From positions 1-5,652 of IMG/VR virus record IMGVR_UViG_3300014512_000020: 5,652 bases of DNA; one strand, written 5' to 3'. Under the pieces are notes generated by a model, which saw only the letters and a list, made by a program, of their open reading frames with translations, did not search any database and had not been told where the DNA came from. The position numbers and the translations under genes are program-made. The stretch is from a virus (Duplodnaviria; Heunggongvirae; Uroviricota; Caudoviricetes). Shown here piece after piece: positions 24 to 5,652 of the stretch; position 1 is the first letter of the stretch; each line of letters starts with the position of its first letter.

Positions 24-1994
24 ATGGCATTTAAACACTATGACGTGGTCAGGGCGGCATCGCCGTCAGACCTTGCGGATGCGCTTGCTCAAAAAATTCG
101 TGAAGGATGGCAACCATACGGCGGGCCGTTTTCTTCGTATACGGATGATGGCGCAGCACTTATTCAGGCGATTGTCGCAGAAGGTAATGTCACCACACCT
201 GTGGTGGTGAAGCCGTCGGATGGAGAAGGCGCAGTTATCAGCACCACCAGCAACCCGGAGTATTACTTTGTTGTTGCCCTGGCCGGGCAGTCAAACGGTA
301 TGGCGTATGGTGAAGGGCTTCCGCTGCCGGAGACATATGACCGTCCGGACCCGCGTATTAAACAGCTGGCGCGTCGCAGCACTGTCACGCCGGGTGGTGC
401 GTCCTGTAACTACAATGACATTATTCCTGCGGACCACTGCCTGCATGATGTTCAGGATTTGAGTAAGTTTTCACACCCGAAAGCCAGTGCAGCTCAGTAT
501 GGATGCGTGGGGCAGGGATTACATATCGCGAAGAAATTGTTGCCGTTTATTCCGGCGAATGCCGGTATTCTTCTGGTTCCGTGCTGCCGTGGTGGTTCTG
601 CATTTTTGGCGGGCGATGAAGGTACCTTCAGCGAATCCACCGGCGCAAGCGAGACCTCGGCACGCTGGGGTGTAGATAAGCCACTGTACAAGGACCTGCT
701 TACCCGTACTCAGGCCGCACTGAAGGCCAACCCTAAAAATATTCTGCTTGCAGTGGTCTGGATGCAGGGCGAGTTTGATTTGAAACAGGGTGCATACGCC
801 ACTCAGCCGGGGCTGTTTGATTCCATGGTGGAAAAATATCGTTCTGACCTGTCGGAATTCGGAGGTCAGTGTCTCGGGGGCTCTCCGTCATCAGTTCCCT
901 GGATTTGTGGCGACACGACCTACTACTGGAAGCAGACTTATTCTTCGCAATACGATGCGGTGTATGGTGCATATAAGACGAAATCCGCAAAAAAAATCTT
1001 CTTTGTGCCGTTTATGACGGATGAAAACGGGCGAAATGTGGGTACCAACGAGCCGTCAGAAGATCCGGATGTTGCGGATATTGGGTATTACGGAGCCGGT
1101 GGTCGAACGGACGCCAAAACCTGGACGACGGCTGACCGTAAAACGCATTTTGGATCATGGGCACGTCGTGGGATTATTTCCGACCGTCTGGCAACGGCGA
1201 TTCTTGTGCATGCCGGGAGAACCGCTGAATTCATTACCGGAAAACAGCCTGATACGGTGAAGCCCACCGGACCTTCCGGTGAAGGTACGGAGAGAGAGCC
1301 GGAAGCTCCGGTCAGTAACCGAACCCTGATGAGTCTGCTGGCGTCCGGCGAAGACCTGGCATCACAGGGCTGGCGCTATTATCACAAACCGGCGAGCGGA
1401 GACAATGTTAACAAAAACATTGCTGAAGCGGTGGTCAGTGATGCGGGGGCTACGGGAGGTAAGGCCCTGCAACTGAATAAACCGGAAAACCACATCTGGT
1501 TTCTGGAGCATGATGCAGCCGGGCAGGGGGCAGAGTTGCTGAAGAAAGGAGGACGTGTGAGCGTACGGTTTAAGTTGCCGGGTTCACTGGTGCCGAATCA
1601 GTTTGCCCTGGGCATTTACTGGCAGTTGTCGTCCCTGCCGGAGGGAGTGACGCTGGCAGAGGAAGGCAACGACATGCTGATGTCCTTCTTCCTGCAGACG
1701 GATGCGACGAACCTGAACGCGATGCACCACAAGAAGCCGAATGCGAAGCTGGATACGTTCGGGGTCTTTGATAACGGATGGCACACACTGGCTTTTGAGT
1801 TTGCCGGAAACAACAGCATTCAGGTGACGCCGGTACTGGATGAGAAACGGGGGACGCCGTTCACACTGGTGAAATCTCCGGCATCAGGGGCGGCGGACAA
1901 ACTGCAACTGACAGGCATATCAAAGGCGGCGACATATACGCTGCTGATTGACAGTGTGAAGGTGGAAGTGAACAACGCGGATGCCGCGGCATGA
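24..1994 (+). CDS. nanS-p: Prophage sialate 9-O-acetylesterase, NanS-p-like (N-terminal DUF1737-like region, SGNH/SASA esterase core, C-terminal putative carbohydrate-binding region), 656 aa
   Basis: Long uninterrupted ORF with good RBS. N-terminus MAFKHYDVVRAASPSDLADALAQKIREGWQPYGG is the characteristic start of prophage NanS-p/933Wp42-type proteins. GQSN block with the putative nucleophile Ser90 (nt 285..296) is typical of the SASA/SGNH family. Size and position upstream of a lysis cassette match Stx-phage architecture. Domain names are from memory, not from a search. Confidence 0.85.
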   Translation: MAFKHYDVVRAASPSDLADALAQKIREGWQPYGGPFSSYTDDGAALIQAIVAEGNVTTPVVVKPSDGEGAVISTTSNPEYYFVVALAGQSNGMAYGEGLPLPETYDRPDPRIKQLARRSTVTPGGASCNYNDIIPADHCLHDVQDLSKFSHPKASAAQYGCVGQGLHIAKKLLPFIPANAGILLVPCCRGGSAFLAGDEGTFSESTGASETSARWGVDKPLYKDLLTRTQAALKANPKNILLAVVWMQGEFDLKQGAYATQPGLFDSMVEKYRSDLSEFGGQCLGGSPSSVPWICGDTTYYWKQTYSSQYDAVYGAYKTKSAKKIFFVPFMTDENGRNVGTNEPSEDPDVADIGYYGAGGRTDAKTWTTADRKTHFGSWARRGIISDRLATAILVHAGRTAEFITGKQPDTVKPTGPSGEGTEREPEAPVSNRTLMSLLASGEDLASQGWRYYHKPASGDNVNKNIAEAVVSDAGATGGKALQLNKPENHIWFLEHDAAGQGAELLKKGGRVSVRFKLPGSLVPNQFALGIYWQLSSLPEGVTLAEEGNDMLMSFFLQTDATNLNAMHHKKPNAKLDTFGVFDNGWHTLAFEFAGNNSIQVTPVLDEKRGTPFTLVKSPASGAADKLQLTGISKAATYTLLIDSVKVEVNNADAAA

Positions 1995-2710: not shown

Positions 2711-2925
2711 ATGTACCAGATGGAAAAAATCACAACAGGTGTGTCATACACCACGTCAGCGGTGGGAACGGGCTNNNNNNNNNNNNNNNNNNNNNNNNNN
2801 NNNNNNNNNNNNNNNNNNNNGCAATAGGCGTGCTGGGGAGTCTGCTGTTTGGGCTGCTGACATATCTGACTAACCTGTATTTCAAAATCAGAGAGGACCG
2901 GCGTAAGGCGGCGCGGGGAGAGTAA
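2711..2925 (+). CDS. S: Holin S, phage-21 S21-like class II (pinholin-type) with dual-start motif M1-Y-Q-M4; central part masked by N
   Basis: N-terminus [21 protein letters not shown] (2711..2773) and C-terminus [34 protein letters not shown] (2821..2922, stop 2923..2925) both match lambdoid/Stx-phage S21-family holins from memory. GGGAG sits 7 nt upstream of the ATG. The two halves are in different frames across the 46-N run, consistent with a true gap of 47 nt (about 71 aa in total). Confidence 0.75.
2775..2820. other. Run of 46 ambiguous bases (N) inside the holin gene: an assembly gap or masked segment
   Basis: Read directly from sequence. Confidence 0.99.
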
Positions 2926-3343: not shown

Positions 3344-3868
3344 ATGAACGCAAAAATCAGATACGGCCTGTCGGCTGCCGTTCTGGCGCTGGGTGCGCCT
3401 GCGCCTGACATTCTCGACCAGTTTCTGGATGAAAAGGAAGGTAACCACACCACGGCATACCGTGATGGTGCGGGTATCTGGACTATCTGCCGCGGTGCCA
3501 TCCTGGTGGATGGCAAACCTGTCGTTCCGGGCATGAAGTTGTCGAAGGAAAAATGCGACCAGGTTAACGCCATTGAGCGTGATAAAGCGCTGGCGTGGGT
3601 GGAGAAAAACATCAGAGTGCCACTGACCGAACCCCAGAAAGCGGGGATCGCGTCATTCTGTCCGTACAACATTGGTCCCGGTAAGTGTTTCCCGTCGACG
3701 TTTTATAAACGAATTAATGCAGGTGATCGCAGGGGAGCGTGTGAGGCGATTCGCTGGTGGATTAAGGACGGTGGCAGAGACTGCCGTATTCGTTCAAACA
3801 ACTGCTACGGTCAGGTATCCCGTCGTGACCAGGAGAGCGCGCTGGCGTGCTGGGGAATCGACAGATAA
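3344..3868 (+). CDS. R: Endolysin R, T4-lysozyme-like glycoside hydrolase family 24 muramidase, phage-21 R21-like; possible N-terminal SAR segment; 174 aa
   Basis: Catalytic triad spacing E32-x8-D41-x5-T47 (EGNHTTAYRDGAGIWT), characteristic of true lysozymes. The C-terminal segment KRINAGDRRGACEAIRWWIKDGG resembles R21 and P1 Lyz. The N-terminal Gly/Ala-rich weakly hydrophobic stretch YGLSAAVLALGAPAP is consistent with, but short for, a signal-anchor-release domain. Confidence 0.9.
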   Translation: MNAKIRYGLSAAVLALGAPAPDILDQFLDEKEGNHTTAYRDGAGIWTICRGAILVDGKPVVPGMKLSKEKCDQVNAIERDKALAWVEKNIRVPLTEPQKAGIASFCPYNIGPGKCFPSTFYKRINAGDRRGACEAIRWWIKDGGRDCRIRSNNCYGQVSRRDQESALACWGIDR

Positions 3869-3958
3869 GCAGAATATTTTGCTGAAAAATAAGGTATGGC
3901 CACGCGGGCGGATAACACGAAATCCTGCGAACTGGCGAAACGTAAGTGAATAAAAGTA

Positions 3959-3997
3959 AAAACCCCGTTTGTTGGCACCAAGCGGGGTTTTGTGTTT
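3959..3997 (+). terminator. Intrinsic-terminator-like hairpin: stem aaaaccccgtttg / caagcggggtttt (13 bp with one G-U), 7-nt loop, followed by a T-rich tract; A-run upstream makes it potentially bidirectional
   Basis: Read directly: arms 3959..3971 and 3979..3991, loop ttggcac, then gtgttt. It lies between the endolysin stop and the small ORF at 4028. Confidence 0.55.
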
Positions 3998-4027
3998 CCT
4001 GACTCCGGAAAAGTCAAAGGAGAAAGT

Positions 4028-4165
4028 GTGTTTGATTTTAGCAAACTGATTCGGGAGATTCGAGTGATGGCTGAAAAATTATCCACCTGGAAGTTCATTC
4101 TTATCTGGCTGGTGTTTGTGATTATGGCCTCCGGTTATTTCATCGGTCAGATACGCTGGTGGTGA
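4028..4165 (+). CDS. Hypothetical small single-pass membrane protein, 45 aa from GTG 4028 (or 32 aa from ATG 4067), translationally coupled to Rz
   Basis: Strong SD AGGAG (4018..4022) 5 nt before GTG 4028. Hydrophobic core WKFILIWLVFVIMASGYFIGQI. Stop TGA at 4163..4165 is 1 nt before the Rz ATG at 4167. No family recognised. Confidence 0.45.
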   Translation: MFDFSKLIREIRVMAEKLSTWKFILIWLVFVIMASGYFIGQIRWW

Positions 4166-4166
4166 A

Positions 4167-4604
4167 ATGAACCGCGTACTGTGCGTGGTCATCATTGCCC
4201 TGCTGGTGGCCTGTGGTGCGCTTAGTCTGGGGCTGAATCATTACCGTGATAACGCCATGACCTACAAAGAGCAGCGCGATAAAGCCACATCCATCATCGC
4301 TGATATGCAGAAGCGTCAACGTGATGTAGCAGAACTCGACGCCAGATACACAAAGGAGCTTGCTGATGCTAACGCGACTATCGAAAGTCTCCGTGCTGAT
4401 GTTTCTGCTGGTCGTAAGCGCCTGCAAGTCGCCGCCACCTGTGCAAAGTCAACGACCGGAGCCAGCAGCATGGGCGATGGAGAAAGCCCAAGACTTACAG
4501 CAGATGCTGAACTCAATTATTACCGTCTCCGAAGTGGAATCGACAAGATAACCGCGCAGGTTAACTACCTGCAGGAATACATCAGGACGCAATGCCTGAA
4601 ATAA
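4167..4604 (+). CDS. Rz: Rz, i-spanin (inner-membrane spanin subunit), 145 aa
   Basis: N-terminal TM helix, then the NHYRDNA...QRDK...RQRDVAELDARYTKELADA segment closely matching lambda Rz; coiled-coil-rich periplasmic domain; sits downstream of the endolysin. Confidence 0.9.
   Translation: MNRVLCVVIIALLVACGALSLGLNHYRDNAMTYKEQRDKATSIIADMQKRQRDVAELDARYTKELADANATIESLRADVSAGRKRLQVAATCAKSTTGASSMGDGESPRLTADAELNYYRLRSGIDKITAQVNYLQEYIRTQCLK
4366..4551 (+). CDS. Rz1: Rz1, o-spanin (outer-membrane lipoprotein subunit), embedded in the +1 frame inside Rz, 61 aa
   Basis: AAAGGAG (4353..4359) 6 nt before ATG 4366. Signal peptide MLTRLSKVSVLMFLLVVSAC with lipobox VSAC, followed by the Pro-rich mature part CKSPPPVQSQRPEP, as in lambda Rz1. 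The ORF track starts at 4360 (TTG); ATG 4366 is preferred. Confidence 0.8.
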   Translation: MLTRLSKVSVLMFLLVVSACKSPPPVQSQRPEPAAWAMEKAQDLQQMLNSIITVSEVESTR

Positions 4605-4635
4605 TTTTTTTGCAAATCACAAAGTCAATTTAATG

Positions 4636-4658
4636 AGCCTCGCGATGCGGGGCTTTTT
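4636..4658 (+). terminator. Intrinsic terminator: stem agcctcgc / gcggggct (8 bp, one G-U), loop gat, followed by ttttt
   Basis: Read directly; GC-rich stem and T5 run about 30 nt downstream of the Rz stop. Confidence 0.55.
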
Positions 4659-4665
4659 GCAATAA

Positions 4666-4690
4666 ATGCGTACCGCAACGCATGTTTTTT
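4666..4690 (+). terminator. Second intrinsic terminator in tandem: stem atgcgt / acgcat (6 bp), loop accgca, followed by g + tttttt
   Basis: Read directly; T6 run at 4685..4690. Confidence 0.5.
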
Positions 4691-4805
4691 ACACCGAACC
4701 TGCCCCTTTGGAATGGGCCTTTGAGGATACCAGTTAGTGCTGGCGAGCCTCGGTGGGCTGGTTTCCTGTGCGGCAAAGGTTCATTTCAAAGAGTAGGTAC
4801 ACGCT

Positions 4806-5303
4806 ATGAAATCATTAACCCTCTTCAATCAACCAATTCGTATCGGTGAAGATGGCATGATCTGCCTCACTGATATGTGGAAAGCCAGTGGTAAAAGTGA
4901 ATCTGAATCGCCTTACCACTACCTGCGAAACAAGCAGACCAAAGAGTTCTTAGCCGAGCTGGAGAAAAACCACGAATCTGTGGTTTTTACTGAGCGCGGT
5001 GTACACGGTGGAACATATGGCGGGAAGTTTGTTGCTTACGATTATGCGGCTTGGTTAAACCCCGGGTTCAAGTACGCGGCCTATAAAGTCCTCGATGACT
5101 ACTTCACCGGAGAACTTCAGCATCGCAACAGCTTAAGTGCGCAGCTCAACATGAAATGTCATGAGTTTGACCAGAAGAAAGACATGGCGAGCTTCTGCGG
5201 ACAAGGGCTGGCAGCATGGCGCTATACGAAGCCAGTGTTGGTCGCTGAGATTAACTCCCTGGCTAACCAGCTGCAGATTACGATCCCCGGGCTTCCGGGA
5301 TGA
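4806..5303 (+). CDS. KilA-N-like domain protein (putative DNA-binding / antirepressor-like), 165 aa
   Basis: N-terminal segment LTLFNQPIRIGEDGMICLTDMWKASGKSESESPYHYLRNKQTKEFLAEL fits the KilA-N pattern from memory (conserved Gly, aliphatic-x-T-D/E-hydrophobic-x-K-A-x-G-K, then W/Y-L-R and T-x-E-F). A Bro-N alternative is not excluded without an HMM search. Confidence 0.7.
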   Translation: MKSLTLFNQPIRIGEDGMICLTDMWKASGKSESESPYHYLRNKQTKEFLAELEKNHESVVFTERGVHGGTYGGKFVAYDYAAWLNPGFKYAAYKVLDDYFTGELQHRNSLSAQLNMKCHEFDQKKDMASFCGQGLAAWRYTKPVLVAEINSLANQLQITIPGLPG

Positions 5304-5557
5304 GTGATCGTGTTATTGAATGCGCCTCCAGAGCGGGGCGCGACTTCTCAGAGTTCATGAAAGGCGAGAAGGGCATGATGGAAGCATTGGCCTCGGTGGA
5401 TGAGTTTGGCGAGCAGCTGCGCCTCAACGGCTGTGTCAATCATCACTTTGTTAGCTACATGATGCGGAACTCGATCATGCAGGCATTCATGGACATGGCA
5501 AAAGCCGAGAGGAAAGAAGAGCGCCGGCGTAAGCGAGCGGAAGCAAAAGCGAAGTAG
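5300..5557 (+). CDS. Hypothetical protein, 85 aa, with a Lys/Arg/Glu-rich C-terminal tail (AKAERKEERRRKRAEAKAK); start overlaps the KilA-N stop (ATGA)
   Basis: The 4-nt ATGA start/stop overlap at 5300..5303 implies translational coupling to the upstream gene. No family recognised. Confidence 0.55.
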   Translation: MSDRVIECASRAGRDFSEFMKGEKGMMEALASVDEFGEQLRLNGCVNHHFVSYMMRNSIMQAFMDMAKAERKEERRRKRAEAKAK

Positions 5558-5597
5558 CCATTACAAAGCCTATCTACGGGTGGGCTTGATAATGGCT
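5556..5597. repeat. Nested inverted repeats overlapping the stop of the last ORF: outer arms agccatta / taatggct, inner arms aagcc / ggctt
   Basis: Read directly: outer arms 5556..5563 and 5590..5597, inner arms 5566..5570 and 5583..5587. No T-run follows, so it is not a canonical terminator. Confidence 0.35.
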
Positions 5598-5609
5598 TAT
5601 ACCCTACAC

Positions 5610-5635
5610 GGGATAACTTAACTGATATCCCTTTT
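5610..5635 (+). terminator. Weak terminator-like hairpin: gggata / tatccc with a 10-nt loop, followed by tttt
   Basis: Read directly; short stem and short T-run, hence low confidence. Confidence 0.3.
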
Positions 5636-5652
5636 AAAGGATAAAGGTATTC

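What the first reader, a model, noticed from the sequence alone, without database searches (positions are those of the whole stretch)
4806..5557. KilA-N-like protein with an overlapping small basic-tailed ORF, placed after tandem terminators
In lambda the region after Rz carries bor on the opposite strand and then cos and terminase. Here, after two tandem terminators, a same-strand two-gene unit appears: a KilA-N-like putative DNA-binding protein whose stop overlaps (ATGA) the start of an 85-aa protein with a highly charged Lys/Arg/Glu tail. Such post-lysis positions are known moron hotspots. The pair could be a regulator or antirepressor with a partner, or an uncharacterised defence or anti-defence module.
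Basis: partly seen in the sequence, partly recalled or inferred. Interest (0 to 1): 0.5.

Follow-up and report, generated by a model that had tools for sequence, protein, structure and literature searches.

The report
Phage KilA-N regulator with small partner
This is a common, long-sequenced but never characterised accessory gene pair of lambda-like phages (HK620 hkbK/hkbL), a KilA-N DNA-binding protein plus a small coupled helper, sitting where phage P22 carries rha; the only fresh point is a conserved folded RNA leader in front of it that hides its ribosome-binding site.

Summary
ORFs 4806-5303 (165 aa) and 5300-5557 (85 aa) exist, overlap by ATGA, and are under strong purifying selection.

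- **Gene 1:** KilA-N plus ORF11CD3 by Pfam, not Bro-N.
- **Gene 2:** a narrow Enterobacterales-only family (HK620 HkbL, phrog_875) with no Pfam match. It is predicted as three helices with a basic tail.
- **Linkage:** the small gene almost always directly follows, tightly coupled, a KilA-N gene of one of two unrelated architectures, or a Rha gene in a distant relative. Its N-terminal module also occurs fused to T5orf172. It therefore belongs to the Bro/KilA/Rha domain-shuffling network.
- **Distribution:** the pair is intact in 389 of 5426 complete E. coli genomes.
- **Position:** it occupies the post-Rz slot that holds rha in P22 and shares P22 rha's upstream leader almost base for base.
- **The "tandem terminators":** these are the first two hairpins of a conserved structured leader of about 150 nt, supported by covariation and absent from Rfam. 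The leader pairs the KilA-N Shine-Dalgarno sequence and abuts the start codon of many different Bro-network genes.

No promoter, defence, antirepressor-domain or packaging signature was found. Best reading: a late-operon, translationally throttled Rha-class DNA-binding accessory factor made of two polypeptides. Its biological role is unknown. Interest is modest.

The parts
4635..4658 (+). Intrinsic terminator after Rz (stem 4637-4653, U-run 4654-4658); first element of the conserved cassette leader
   Evidence: RNA fold dG -14.6 kcal/mol, z -2.9. It is conserved in HK97, HK620, mEp235 and Klebsiella phage RAH1. A terminator-like hairpin lies upstream of 118 of 120 related leaders.
4666..4690 (+).
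   Evidence: dG -6.9, z -1.7. The homologous hairpin GCGC(A)-N6-7-(T)GCGC is 100% paired across 16 leaders, but has no T-run in P22, HK620 or HK97.
4653..4808 (+). Conserved structured RNA leader of Bro-network genes, ending at the KilA-N start codon
   Evidence: Covariance model R1 scores 86.5 bits in the window. For the consensus structure, 91.9% of cells are paired against 33-54% when partners are slid. 14 of 25 pairs show compensatory changes, and the covariation score is 0.366 against 0.06-0.13. No Rfam family matches. The leader is nearly identical to the one upstream of P22 rha.
4698..4798 (+). Long irregular stem-loop whose base pairs ACCUGC (4698-4703) with the Shine-Dalgarno GUAGGU (4793-4798) of the KilA-N gene
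   Evidence: The MFE of 4686-4812 is -49.3 kcal/mol, z -3.46, and 0 of 200 shuffles fold as well.
4806..5303 (+). 165-aa KilA-N + ORF11CD3 protein (HK620 HkbK orthologue)
   Evidence: Pfam; phrog_129; HK620 hkbK. The AF2 model has pLDDT 84.5, with a beta/alpha N-domain at 1-84 and a helical hairpin H86-130/H132-156. dN/dS is about 0.03-0.2.
5300..5557 (+). 85-aa three-helix protein with a Lys/Arg/Glu tail (HK620 HkbL; phrog_875), translationally coupled by ATGA
   Evidence: AF2 pLDDT 92 with helices 3-20, 26-42 and 48-84. Its own Shine-Dalgarno is weak, -2.8 kcal/mol. dN/dS is 0.04-0.09.
5556..5597 (.). Strong hairpin starting in the stop codon of the small gene; it marks the cassette end and is a recombination breakpoint
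   Evidence: dG -25.6 kcal/mol, z -7.4. Alignment breakpoints cluster at 5594/5595 in many loci. The same hairpin follows unrelated KilA-N genes in SE1 (L101 3053-3092) and Enterobacter (L108 3065-3102).

Best explanation
The unit is a Rha-class accessory cassette of the lambdoid late operon. It consists of a terminator, a structured leader of about 150 nt, a KilA-N/ORF11CD3 DNA-binding protein, a translationally coupled small helical protein with a basic tail, and a closing hairpin.

**Transcription (inferred).** The unit has no promoter of its own. It is transcribed only by Q-antiterminated polymerase that reads through the terminator after Rz, so it is expressed late in lytic growth and is silent in the lysogen.

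**Translation (structure shown, effect inferred).** The leader folds into a long stem-loop that pairs the Shine-Dalgarno sequence of the KilA-N gene. This should keep output of a potentially harmful protein low or conditional.

**Coupling (inferred from anatomy).** The 85-aa gene has almost no Shine-Dalgarno sequence of its own. It is probably translated by termination-reinitiation at ATGA, so both polypeptides would be made together.

**Protein function (inferred).** KilA-N binds DNA and the ORF11CD3 helical hairpin mediates oligomerisation or partner contact. The small protein is a further module of the Bro/KilA/Rha shuffling network that works as a subunit of the KilA-N protein. The complex acts on DNA late in infection in the manner of P22/phi80 Rha, whose product harms lytic growth when IHF is absent. 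The physiological target is unknown.
For: - **Same slot as P22 rha.** P22 rha lies directly after gene 15 (the Rz equivalent) on the late strand.
- **Same leader as P22 rha.** About 97 nt are nearly identical, and the ATG sits at the same position. Model R1 scores 81.6 bits in P22.
- **Same C-terminal domain.** P22 Rha is pRha plus ORF11CD3. Its ORF11CD3 is 35% identical to the window's, E 2e-8.
- **Rha biology.** rha is a late-operon gene, detrimental for lytic growth without IHF, and regulated by IHF (PMC4936722, citing Henthorn & Friedman 1995).
- **No promoter.** No + strand promoter-like site was found in 4100-5652, and the terminator is conserved.
- **Leader structure.** Covariation supports it and the Shine-Dalgarno sequence is paired.
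- **Leader distribution.** It abuts the ATG of pRha+ORF11CD3, pRha, KilA-N, ANT and T5orf172 genes in 120 IMG/VR loci, and of every gene in tandem arrays.
- **Linkage of the small gene.** In the 93 loci held, nearly every locus with complete flanking sequence has it directly after a KilA-N gene. That gene is either KilA-N+ORF11CD3 with an ATGA overlap, or KilA-N+P63C with a 2-nt gap.
- **Conservation contrast.** The two KilA-N domains are only 23% identical, while the small protein stays 85-96% identical.
- **Distant relatives.** One overlaps a pRha gene by 4 nt. The N-terminal module also occurs fused to T5orf172/MUG113.
- **The pair moves as a unit.** It sits among tail genes in Klebsiella phage RAH1.
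- **Weak own Shine-Dalgarno sequence** for the small gene.
Against: - No experiment bears on any step.
- Lineages of KilA-N+ORF11CD3 at 27-63% identity occupy the same slot without the small gene, so the partner is not obligatory for this class.
- Physical interaction between the two proteins was not testable here.
- The promoter scan covers only the sigma-70 consensus.
- No IHF consensus site was found in the leaders, so the link to the Rha/IHF phenotype rests on analogy only.
- The N-terminal domain differs from Rha (KilA-N rather than pRha).
- Fold searches gave nothing significant for either protein.
Confidence: 0.55

Rival explanations
1. A trans-acting antirepressor with a helper. The KilA-N protein, with the small protein, would bind and inactivate the repressor of this or of co-resident prophages or satellites. 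This would reinforce or spread induction.
For: - The family is routinely annotated as antirepressor: P22 rha is labelled "anti-repressor" and the Klebsiella RAH1 orthologue "antirepressor".
- Distant relatives of the small gene sit in immI-like arc/mnt/ant operons (L095/L096; L094).
- Trans-acting antirepressors are known in Gifsy phages (Lemire et al. 2011, cited in PMC13043305).
Against: - No ANT/KilAC, P22_AR_N or P22_AR_C domain is present.
- The unit lies in the late operon behind a terminator with no promoter, so it would be made after the lysis decision.
- No repressor-binding evidence exists for any KilA-N+ORF11CD3 protein.
Confidence: 0.15
2. A defence (superinfection exclusion or abortive infection) or anti-defence module carried as prophage cargo.
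For: - BstA, a prophage abortive-infection protein, has a KilA-N-like N-domain (PMC8585504).
- There is a partial hit to PADLOC candidate PDC-S22, E 1.2e-8.
- The slot is variable and accessory, with alternative alleles.
Against: - The PADLOC hit covers only part of the KilA-N domain, and the small protein has no credible hit (QatB, E 0.022).
- There is no promoter for expression from the lysogen and a terminator lies upstream.
- Neither BstA's C-terminal domain nor its architecture is present.
- Anti-defence genes are usually early genes, not late ones.
Confidence: 0.1
3. A toxin with its antidote or chaperone. The KilA-N protein would be host-toxic, as P1 KilA is, and the coupled small protein would neutralise or dose it.
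For: - P1 KilA, a homologue at 29-30% identity over the N-domain, is known from the literature to be lethal when expressed (own knowledge).
- The two genes are tightly coupled translationally.
- The Shine-Dalgarno-occluding leader suggests that expression must be limited.
Against: - Related KilA-N+ORF11CD3 genes exist without the small gene.
- The small module also occurs fused to T5orf172 and next to Rha genes, which fits a shuffled functional domain better than a dedicated antidote.
- The gene order and the lack of a promoter are atypical for toxin-antitoxin pairs.
Confidence: 0.1
4. An ordinary morphogenesis or packaging accessory, because it lies next to the terminase genes.
For: Its position just upstream of the terminase region in relatives.
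Against: - No terminase or packaging family hit in Pfam, PHROGs or NCBIfam.
- The slot holds interchangeable alleles, or none, in phages that share the same packaging genes.
- The pair also occurs among tail genes.
Confidence: 0.03

Closest known systems
P22 / phi80 rha (late-operon Rha gene; Henthorn & Friedman 1995, as cited in PMC4936722 and PMC8951638)
   Same: - Same genomic slot, directly after the Rz-type spanin on the late strand.
- Nearly identical upstream leader, with the start codon at the same place.
- Same C-terminal ORF11CD3 domain.
   Different: - The N-terminal domain is KilA-N instead of Phage_pRha.
- P22 rha has no coupled HkbL-type gene.
- The IHF-dependent Rha phenotype has not been tested for this pair.
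HK620 hkbK / hkbL (and the same pair in Stx phages 1717 and 2851, in PhiR49_1, and in Salmonella phages such as S107)
   Same: The same two genes. The small protein is 100% identical and the KilA-N protein about 95-100% identical, with the same ATGA overlap.
   Different: Nothing structural. The flanks differ (mosaic), and the leader is of a different sequence type in HK620.
Pseudomonas phage D3 orf11 (eponym of ORF11CD3) and ST104 orf45 / SE1 / ST64B sb54
   Same: KilA-N + ORF11CD3 two-domain architecture over the whole length, at 26-28% identity. The Salmonella phages carry it in the same post-Rz slot, with the same leader family.
   Different: - No coupled HkbL gene.
- D3 orf11 sits among head-tail genes and has no leader match.
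HK97 / HK022 / mEp235 KilA-N + P63C protein followed by HK97p61
   Same: The same small protein (85-96% identical) immediately downstream, the same slot after Rz, and the same leader family.
   Different: The upstream protein is 242 aa, with a KilA-N domain only 23% identical and P63C instead of ORF11CD3. There is a 2-nt gap instead of an ATGA overlap.
BstA prophage abortive-infection protein (PMC8585504)
   Same: An N-terminal KilA-N(-like) DNA-binding domain in a temperate-phage accessory protein.
   Different: BstA is about 307 aa with a distinct C-terminal domain. Its locus carries its own anti-BstA DNA element, and the paper describes it as a defence protein acting from the prophage. None of these features was found here.

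Membership tests
KilA-N domain proteins (Pfam PF04383) | Significant match to the KilA-N profile, located at the N-terminus | tested here: met
   57.6 bits against a cut-off of 23.8, E 1.3e-15, residues 9-101.
KilA-N domain proteins (Pfam PF04383) | APSES-like beta/alpha DNA-binding fold | tested here: inconclusive
   The AF2 model shows strands followed by helices in residues 1-84. The Foldseek PDB search ranks Mbp1 APSES second, but only at E 0.79.
KilA-N domain proteins (Pfam PF04383) | DNA binding | not testable with these tools
   Needs EMSA or ChIP.
ORF11CD3 domain (Pfam PF10549; D3 orf11 type) | Significant profile match at the C-terminus, behind an N-terminal Bro-network DNA-binding module | tested here: met
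   50.5 bits against 25, residues 109-161. It aligns over residues 9-160 with D3 orf11. It is predicted as a helical hairpin.
Bro-N domain proteins (Pfam PF02498) | Match to the Bro-N profile | tested here: not met
   No Bro-N hit at E <= 0.1.
Rha-class late-operon cassette (P22 rha) | Position directly after the Rz-type spanin, on the late strand | tested here: met
   Window Rz 4167-4604, then the pair. P22 gene 15, then rha.
Rha-class late-operon cassette (P22 rha) | Shared upstream leader | tested here: met
   The pairwise alignment is nearly identical from about 4697 to 4793. R1 scores 86.5 bits in the window and 81.6 bits in P22.
Rha-class late-operon cassette (P22 rha) | Phage_pRha N-terminal domain (PF09669) | tested here: not met
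   Only KilA-N and ORF11CD3 were found. P22 Rha has pRha.
Rha-class late-operon cassette (P22 rha) | Product inhibits lytic growth in IHF-deficient hosts | not testable with these tools
   This is a genetic phenotype. No IHF consensus site was found in the leaders.
Moron (independent transcription unit in a phage late region) | Own promoter upstream of the gene | tested here: not met
   No + strand sigma-70-like site in 4100-5652, nor in HK97 or Klebsiella RAH1 upstream of the pair. This is a consensus scan only.
Moron (independent transcription unit in a phage late region) | Own terminator downstream | tested here: inconclusive
   A strong hairpin lies at 5556-5597, but it has no U-run.
Phage antirepressors (ANT/KilAC PF03374; P22_AR_N/C) | Presence of an antirepressor domain | tested here: not met
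   None was found in either protein.
Known defence systems (PADLOC-DB; BstA) | Full-length match to a defence protein model | tested here: not met
   Only a partial KilA-N-level match to candidate PDC-S22. For the small protein, only QatB at E 0.022.
Terminase / packaging proteins | Homology of the second ORF to a packaging component | tested here: not met
   No such hit in Pfam, PHROGs, NCBIfam, the 5.8-billion-protein search or the 1.84-billion-representative search.
HkbL family (phrog_875) | Full-length match, with the conserved ECASRAGRDFSEF and GCVNHHF motifs | tested here: met
   phrog_875 E 3.2e-54 over residues 1-85. Invariant residues are listed.

The most novel reading that the evidence does not exclude
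The terminator plus structured leader would be a previously undescribed cis-regulatory RNA class. It would gate translation of potentially toxic Bro-network genes (KilA-N, Rha, ANT, T5orf172) in the late operons of enterobacterial temperate phages. The translationally coupled small proteins with basic tails would be its trans-acting nucleic-acid-binding partners, for example giving feedback on the leader or on the closing hairpin. These include HkbL, whose ERRRKRAEAK tail resembles arginine-rich RNA-binding motifs, and at least two unrelated analogous families.
Probability: 0.15. Interest if true: 0.6.

Novelty: new member of a known kind. Interest (0 to 1): 0.35.

Why it matters
As a gene pair it is ordinary. 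It is a widespread accessory module of lambdoid phages, annotated as hypothetical and belonging to the Bro/KilA/Rha network.

Three results give small, testable handles on a large class of phage proteins that still lack a mechanism:
- The 85-aa protein is a portable module of that network.
- The cassette shares its leader with P22 rha.
- The leader is a covarying RNA structure that masks the ribosome-binding site and precedes many different Bro-network genes.

If the leader is confirmed experimentally, it could be curated as a new RNA family. It also corrects the likely start codon of P22 rha.

Full report
**1. Observation**

The window is the late region of a lambdoid prophage. From left to right it holds:
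- a NanS-p-like esterase (24-1994);
- DUF1378 and DUF826 ORFs;
- a holin interrupted by a run of N;
- a DUF1327 ORF;
- lysozyme R (3344-3868);
- Rz (4167-4604) with Rz1 embedded.

The two ORFs of the finding are exactly where stated: 4806-5303 (165 aa) and 5300-5557 (85 aa). They overlap as ATGA. Both are under strong purifying selection against relatives, with dN/dS of about 0.03-0.1, so they are real genes.

Hairpin 1 after Rz (stem 4637-4653 plus five U, -14.6 kcal/mol) is a good intrinsic terminator. Hairpin 2 (4666-4683 plus a T-run, -6.9 kcal/mol) is weaker.

**2. Identity of the proteins**

Gene 1 is KilA-N (residues 9-101) plus ORF11CD3 (109-161). Both score well above Pfam's thresholds, and there is no Bro-N match. 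AF2 (pLDDT 84.5) gives a beta/alpha N-domain followed by a long helical hairpin for ORF11CD3. Fold searches add nothing significant.

Gene 2 has no Pfam or NCBIfam match. It matches phrog_875, of unknown function, over its full length. The family is narrow:
- 138 clusters at 90% identity;
- only 20 representatives at 50% identity among 1.84 billion proteins;
- where a source names the organism, it is always a member of the Enterobacterales.

Conserved blocks are ECASRAGRDFSEF and GCVNHHF. AF2 (pLDDT 92) predicts three helices, the last running into the Lys/Arg/Glu tail. Structural neighbours are only generic helical bundles.

**3. The pair is already in the databases**

It is HK620 hkbK/hkbL. 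It also occurs in Stx phages 1717 and 2851 (there labelled kilA), in PhiR49_1 (labelled "KilA-N-ORF11CD3"), and in Salmonella phages such as S107. It is intact in 389 of 5426 complete E. coli genomes, annotated "KilA-N domain-containing protein | hypothetical protein". I found no paper on its function.

**4.

In the 93 loci held at that point, the small gene directly follows a KilA-N gene in nearly every locus with complete flanking sequence. There are two architectures:
- the 165-aa KilA-N+ORF11CD3 protein with the ATGA overlap;
- a 242-268-aa KilA-N+P63C protein with a 2-nt gap, found in HK97, HK022, mEp235, Scandinavium, Raoultella and Trabulsiella.

The two KilA-N domains are only 23% identical. 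The small protein stays 85-96% identical between them.

In three loci (L007, L008, L014) the longest upstream ORF is only 46-50 aa and corresponds to the C-terminal end of the KilA-N protein. I did not follow these up.

Further relatives extend the pattern:
- A distant relative of the small protein (P0122) overlaps by 4 nt the stop of a 234-aa Phage_pRha protein, inside an immI-like arc/mnt/ant operon.
- The N-terminal two-thirds of the small protein occurs fused to a T5orf172/MUG113 domain: P0133 and a 161-aa family.
- P0133 lies next to a KilA-N+P63C gene.
- In Klebsiella phage RAH1 the whole pair sits between tail genes.

So the pair moves as a unit, and the small protein is a module of the Bro/KilA/Rha domain-shuffling network. 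That network is described by Iyer et al. 2002, as cited in PMC8951638 and PMC10111431.

The reverse does not hold. KilA-N+ORF11CD3 proteins at 27-63% identity occupy the same slot without it. Examples are ST104 orf45, SE1, ST64B, phiEt88, Cronobacter and Enterobacter. A prophage in strain SCU-172 that matches about 86% of the window at 98% identity has a different 173-aa KilA-N gene after Rz and no partner.

**5. The slot is the rha slot**

In P22, rha lies directly after gene 15, the Rz equivalent. P22 Rha is pRha plus ORF11CD3, and its ORF11CD3 is 35% identical to the window's. The roughly 100 nt upstream of the window's KilA-N start are nearly identical to the sequence upstream of P22 rha, with the ATG at the same position.

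**6. The "tandem terminators" belong to a conserved structured leader**

Leaders from 16 phages, falling into five sequence types, align into a common architecture:
- a terminator;
- a small hairpin of the form GCGC(A)-N6-7-(T)GCGC;
- a long-range helix system of about 110 nt.

RNAalifold gives 25 pairs, of which 14 show compensatory changes. Against controls:

| Measure | Proposed structure | Partners slid by 1-3 columns |
|---|---|---|
| Cells paired | 91.9% | 33-54% |
| Covariation score | 0.366 | 0.06-0.13 |

No shuffle out of 500 reached the observed values on four of the five measures, and 6 of 500 did on the fifth.

In the window, the region 4686-4812 folds at -49.3 kcal/mol (z -3.5). 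The Shine-Dalgarno GUAGGU (4793-4798) pairs with ACCUGC (4698-4703). In the other sequence types, CUUU pairs with the AAAG of the Shine-Dalgarno region. No Rfam family matches.

A scan of IMG/VR for one leader type gave 120 loci. In the loci where a downstream ORF could be read, nearly all the ORFs starting right after the leader fall into these classes:
- pRha+ORF11CD3;
- pRha alone;
- KilA-N, with or without ORF11CD3;
- ANT/KilAC;
- HkbL-like+T5orf172;
- T5orf172 alone;
- one 198-aa class with no Pfam match.

A terminator precedes the leader in 118 of the 120 loci.

A covariance model finds leader copies ending at the ATG of each gene in tandem arrays: three copies in E. coli cM8a and three in Salmonella Kottbus. 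It also finds copies in P22 and in SCU-172. Minus-strand scores are far lower, which argues for a + strand RNA.

It has a T-run in this window but not in P22, HK620 or HK97.

**7. Mechanism**

Shown:
- the anatomy of the cassette;
- the linkage of the two genes;
- the leader structure and its covariation;
- the paired Shine-Dalgarno sequence;
- the weak Shine-Dalgarno sequence of the small gene (-2.8 kcal/mol);
- the absence of a consensus promoter on the + strand.

Inferred from the lambdoid paradigm:
- Transcription comes only from Q-antiterminated read-through. P22's annotation of t-late illustrates the principle.
- The leader limits translation.
- The small gene is translated by reinitiation at ATGA.
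- The two proteins form a DNA-binding complex acting late, as Rha does.

The biological target remains unknown.

At least two other unrelated small ORF families overlap Bro-network genes by 4 nt behind the same leader. One is a 67-aa family beginning MTPIDF and ending KQKGKK. The other is a 57-aa family beginning MTKNEKQQ and ending KRNKKR. A phiEt88-type ORF shows the same overlap. The "coupled small basic-tailed partner" is therefore a recurrent theme rather than a peculiarity of this window.

**8. Rivals**

- **Antirepressor.** Annotation habit and the immI context of distant relatives favour it. The lack of ANT or P22_AR domains and the late, promoter-less position argue against it.
- **Defence or anti-defence.** BstA shows that a KilA-N-like domain can serve abortive infection. 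Here PADLOC gives only a partial domain-level hit, and expression from the lysogen is unlikely.
- **Toxin plus antidote.** Possible, but the small module's other fusions and neighbours fit a shuffled functional domain better.
- **Packaging.** No support.

**9. Verdict**

The pair is an ordinary, widespread member of a known network, long sequenced but uncharacterised.

Three points go beyond the finding:
- the cassette's identity with the rha slot and leader;
- the covarying Shine-Dalgarno-masking leader shared by many Bro-network genes;
- the recognition of the small protein as a portable module of that network.

Interest is modest, at 0.35.

Noticed in passing
window 4653-4808; also L232 3493-3647 (P22), L233 6326-6476, 6654-6794 and 8011-8165, L107 300-450, 1061-1205 and 1809-1958: A structured RNA leader of about 150 nt, absent from Rfam 15, abuts the start codon of many different Bro-network genes (KilA-N, pRha, ANT, T5orf172). 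It is supported by covariation and pairs the Shine-Dalgarno region. It recurs before each gene in tandem arrays.
   Followed up: yes
window 5556-5597: A very stable hairpin (-25.6 kcal/mol, z -7.4) starts in the stop codon of the small gene and has no U-run. Alignment breakpoints cluster at 5594/5595. In many loci an insertion of a few hundred bases follows, flanked by a repeat of 5580-5594. The same hairpin closes unrelated KilA-N genes in SE1 and Enterobacter. It may terminate the convergent leftward genes seen downstream in PhiR49_1.
   Followed up: partly
L232 3576-3647 (P22 record 39575-39646): The annotated GTG start of P22 rha lies inside the conserved leader. By alignment with the window and with the 172-180-aa Rha+ORF11CD3 proteins, the likely true start is the ATG about 69 nt downstream. 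That would give a protein of about 178 aa.
   Followed up: partly
P0133 (L094 4001-4495); 161-aa proteins in L145 and L155: The N-terminal two-helix module of the 85-aa protein occurs fused to a T5orf172/MUG113 (GIY-YIG-like) domain. Pfam does not cover this N-terminal module. One fusion lies next to a KilA-N+P63C gene; others follow the same leader.
   Followed up: partly
L126, L198, L212 and others; L103 3067-3183; L233 7361-7564: At least two further, unrelated families of small ORFs with Lys/Arg-rich tails overlap the stop of Bro-network genes by 4 nt. One is a 67-aa family beginning MTPIDF, the other a 57-aa family beginning MTKNEKQQ. A phiEt88-type ORF and a 67-aa ORF after a BRO-N gene in strain cM8a show the same overlap, but I did not compare them with those two families.
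   Followed up: partly
window 2775-2820: A run of 46 N interrupts the class II holin gene. This is an assembly gap or masking.
   Followed up: no
window 3868-4167: A 300-nt spacer separates lysozyme R from Rz, and it is unannotated in relatives. It holds a terminator-like hairpin with A- and T-runs on its two sides (AAAACCCCG...CGGGGTTTT, 3959-3991), so it could work in either direction. It also holds a small hydrophobic ORF (57 aa from GTG 3992, or 32 aa from ATG 4067) whose stop at 4163-4165 abuts the Rz start. No family hit in NCBIfam.
   Followed up: partly
window 24-1994: A 656-aa NanS-p-like esterase (DUF1737 + SASA + DUF6645). I recall this as typical of the region downstream of stx in Stx phages. 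The closest whole-window relatives carry Q and tRNA genes upstream and no stx in the stretches examined.
   Followed up: no
window 4360-4551: An Rz1-type lipoprotein ORF is embedded in Rz in the +1 frame. It has a lipobox-like LVVSAC and a proline-rich segment.
   Followed up: no
L007 (JARKOR010000234.1): A 4-kb contig binned as "Candidatus Nanosynbacter" carries this E. coli phage pair at 96-99% identity. This is probably a binning contaminant.
   Followed up: no
L010 2535-3243; phage Dewey (H23): In Scandinavium a leader copy is followed by an inserted ORF before the KilA-N+P63C gene. By eye it looks like an AP2/HNH-type homing endonuclease. Phage Dewey has an annotated HNH endonuclease within the match to the window, so homing endonucleases may invade this cassette.
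   Followed up: no
L108/L109 2501-3004; L106/L107: There are mosaic joints inside the gene at the domain boundary (window about 5054-5091). Enterobacter keeps the same KilA-N half at 92% DNA identity with a different C-terminal half. Salmonella Kottbus keeps the ORF11CD3 half plus the first 14 codons of the small gene, behind a different N-domain.
   Followed up: partly
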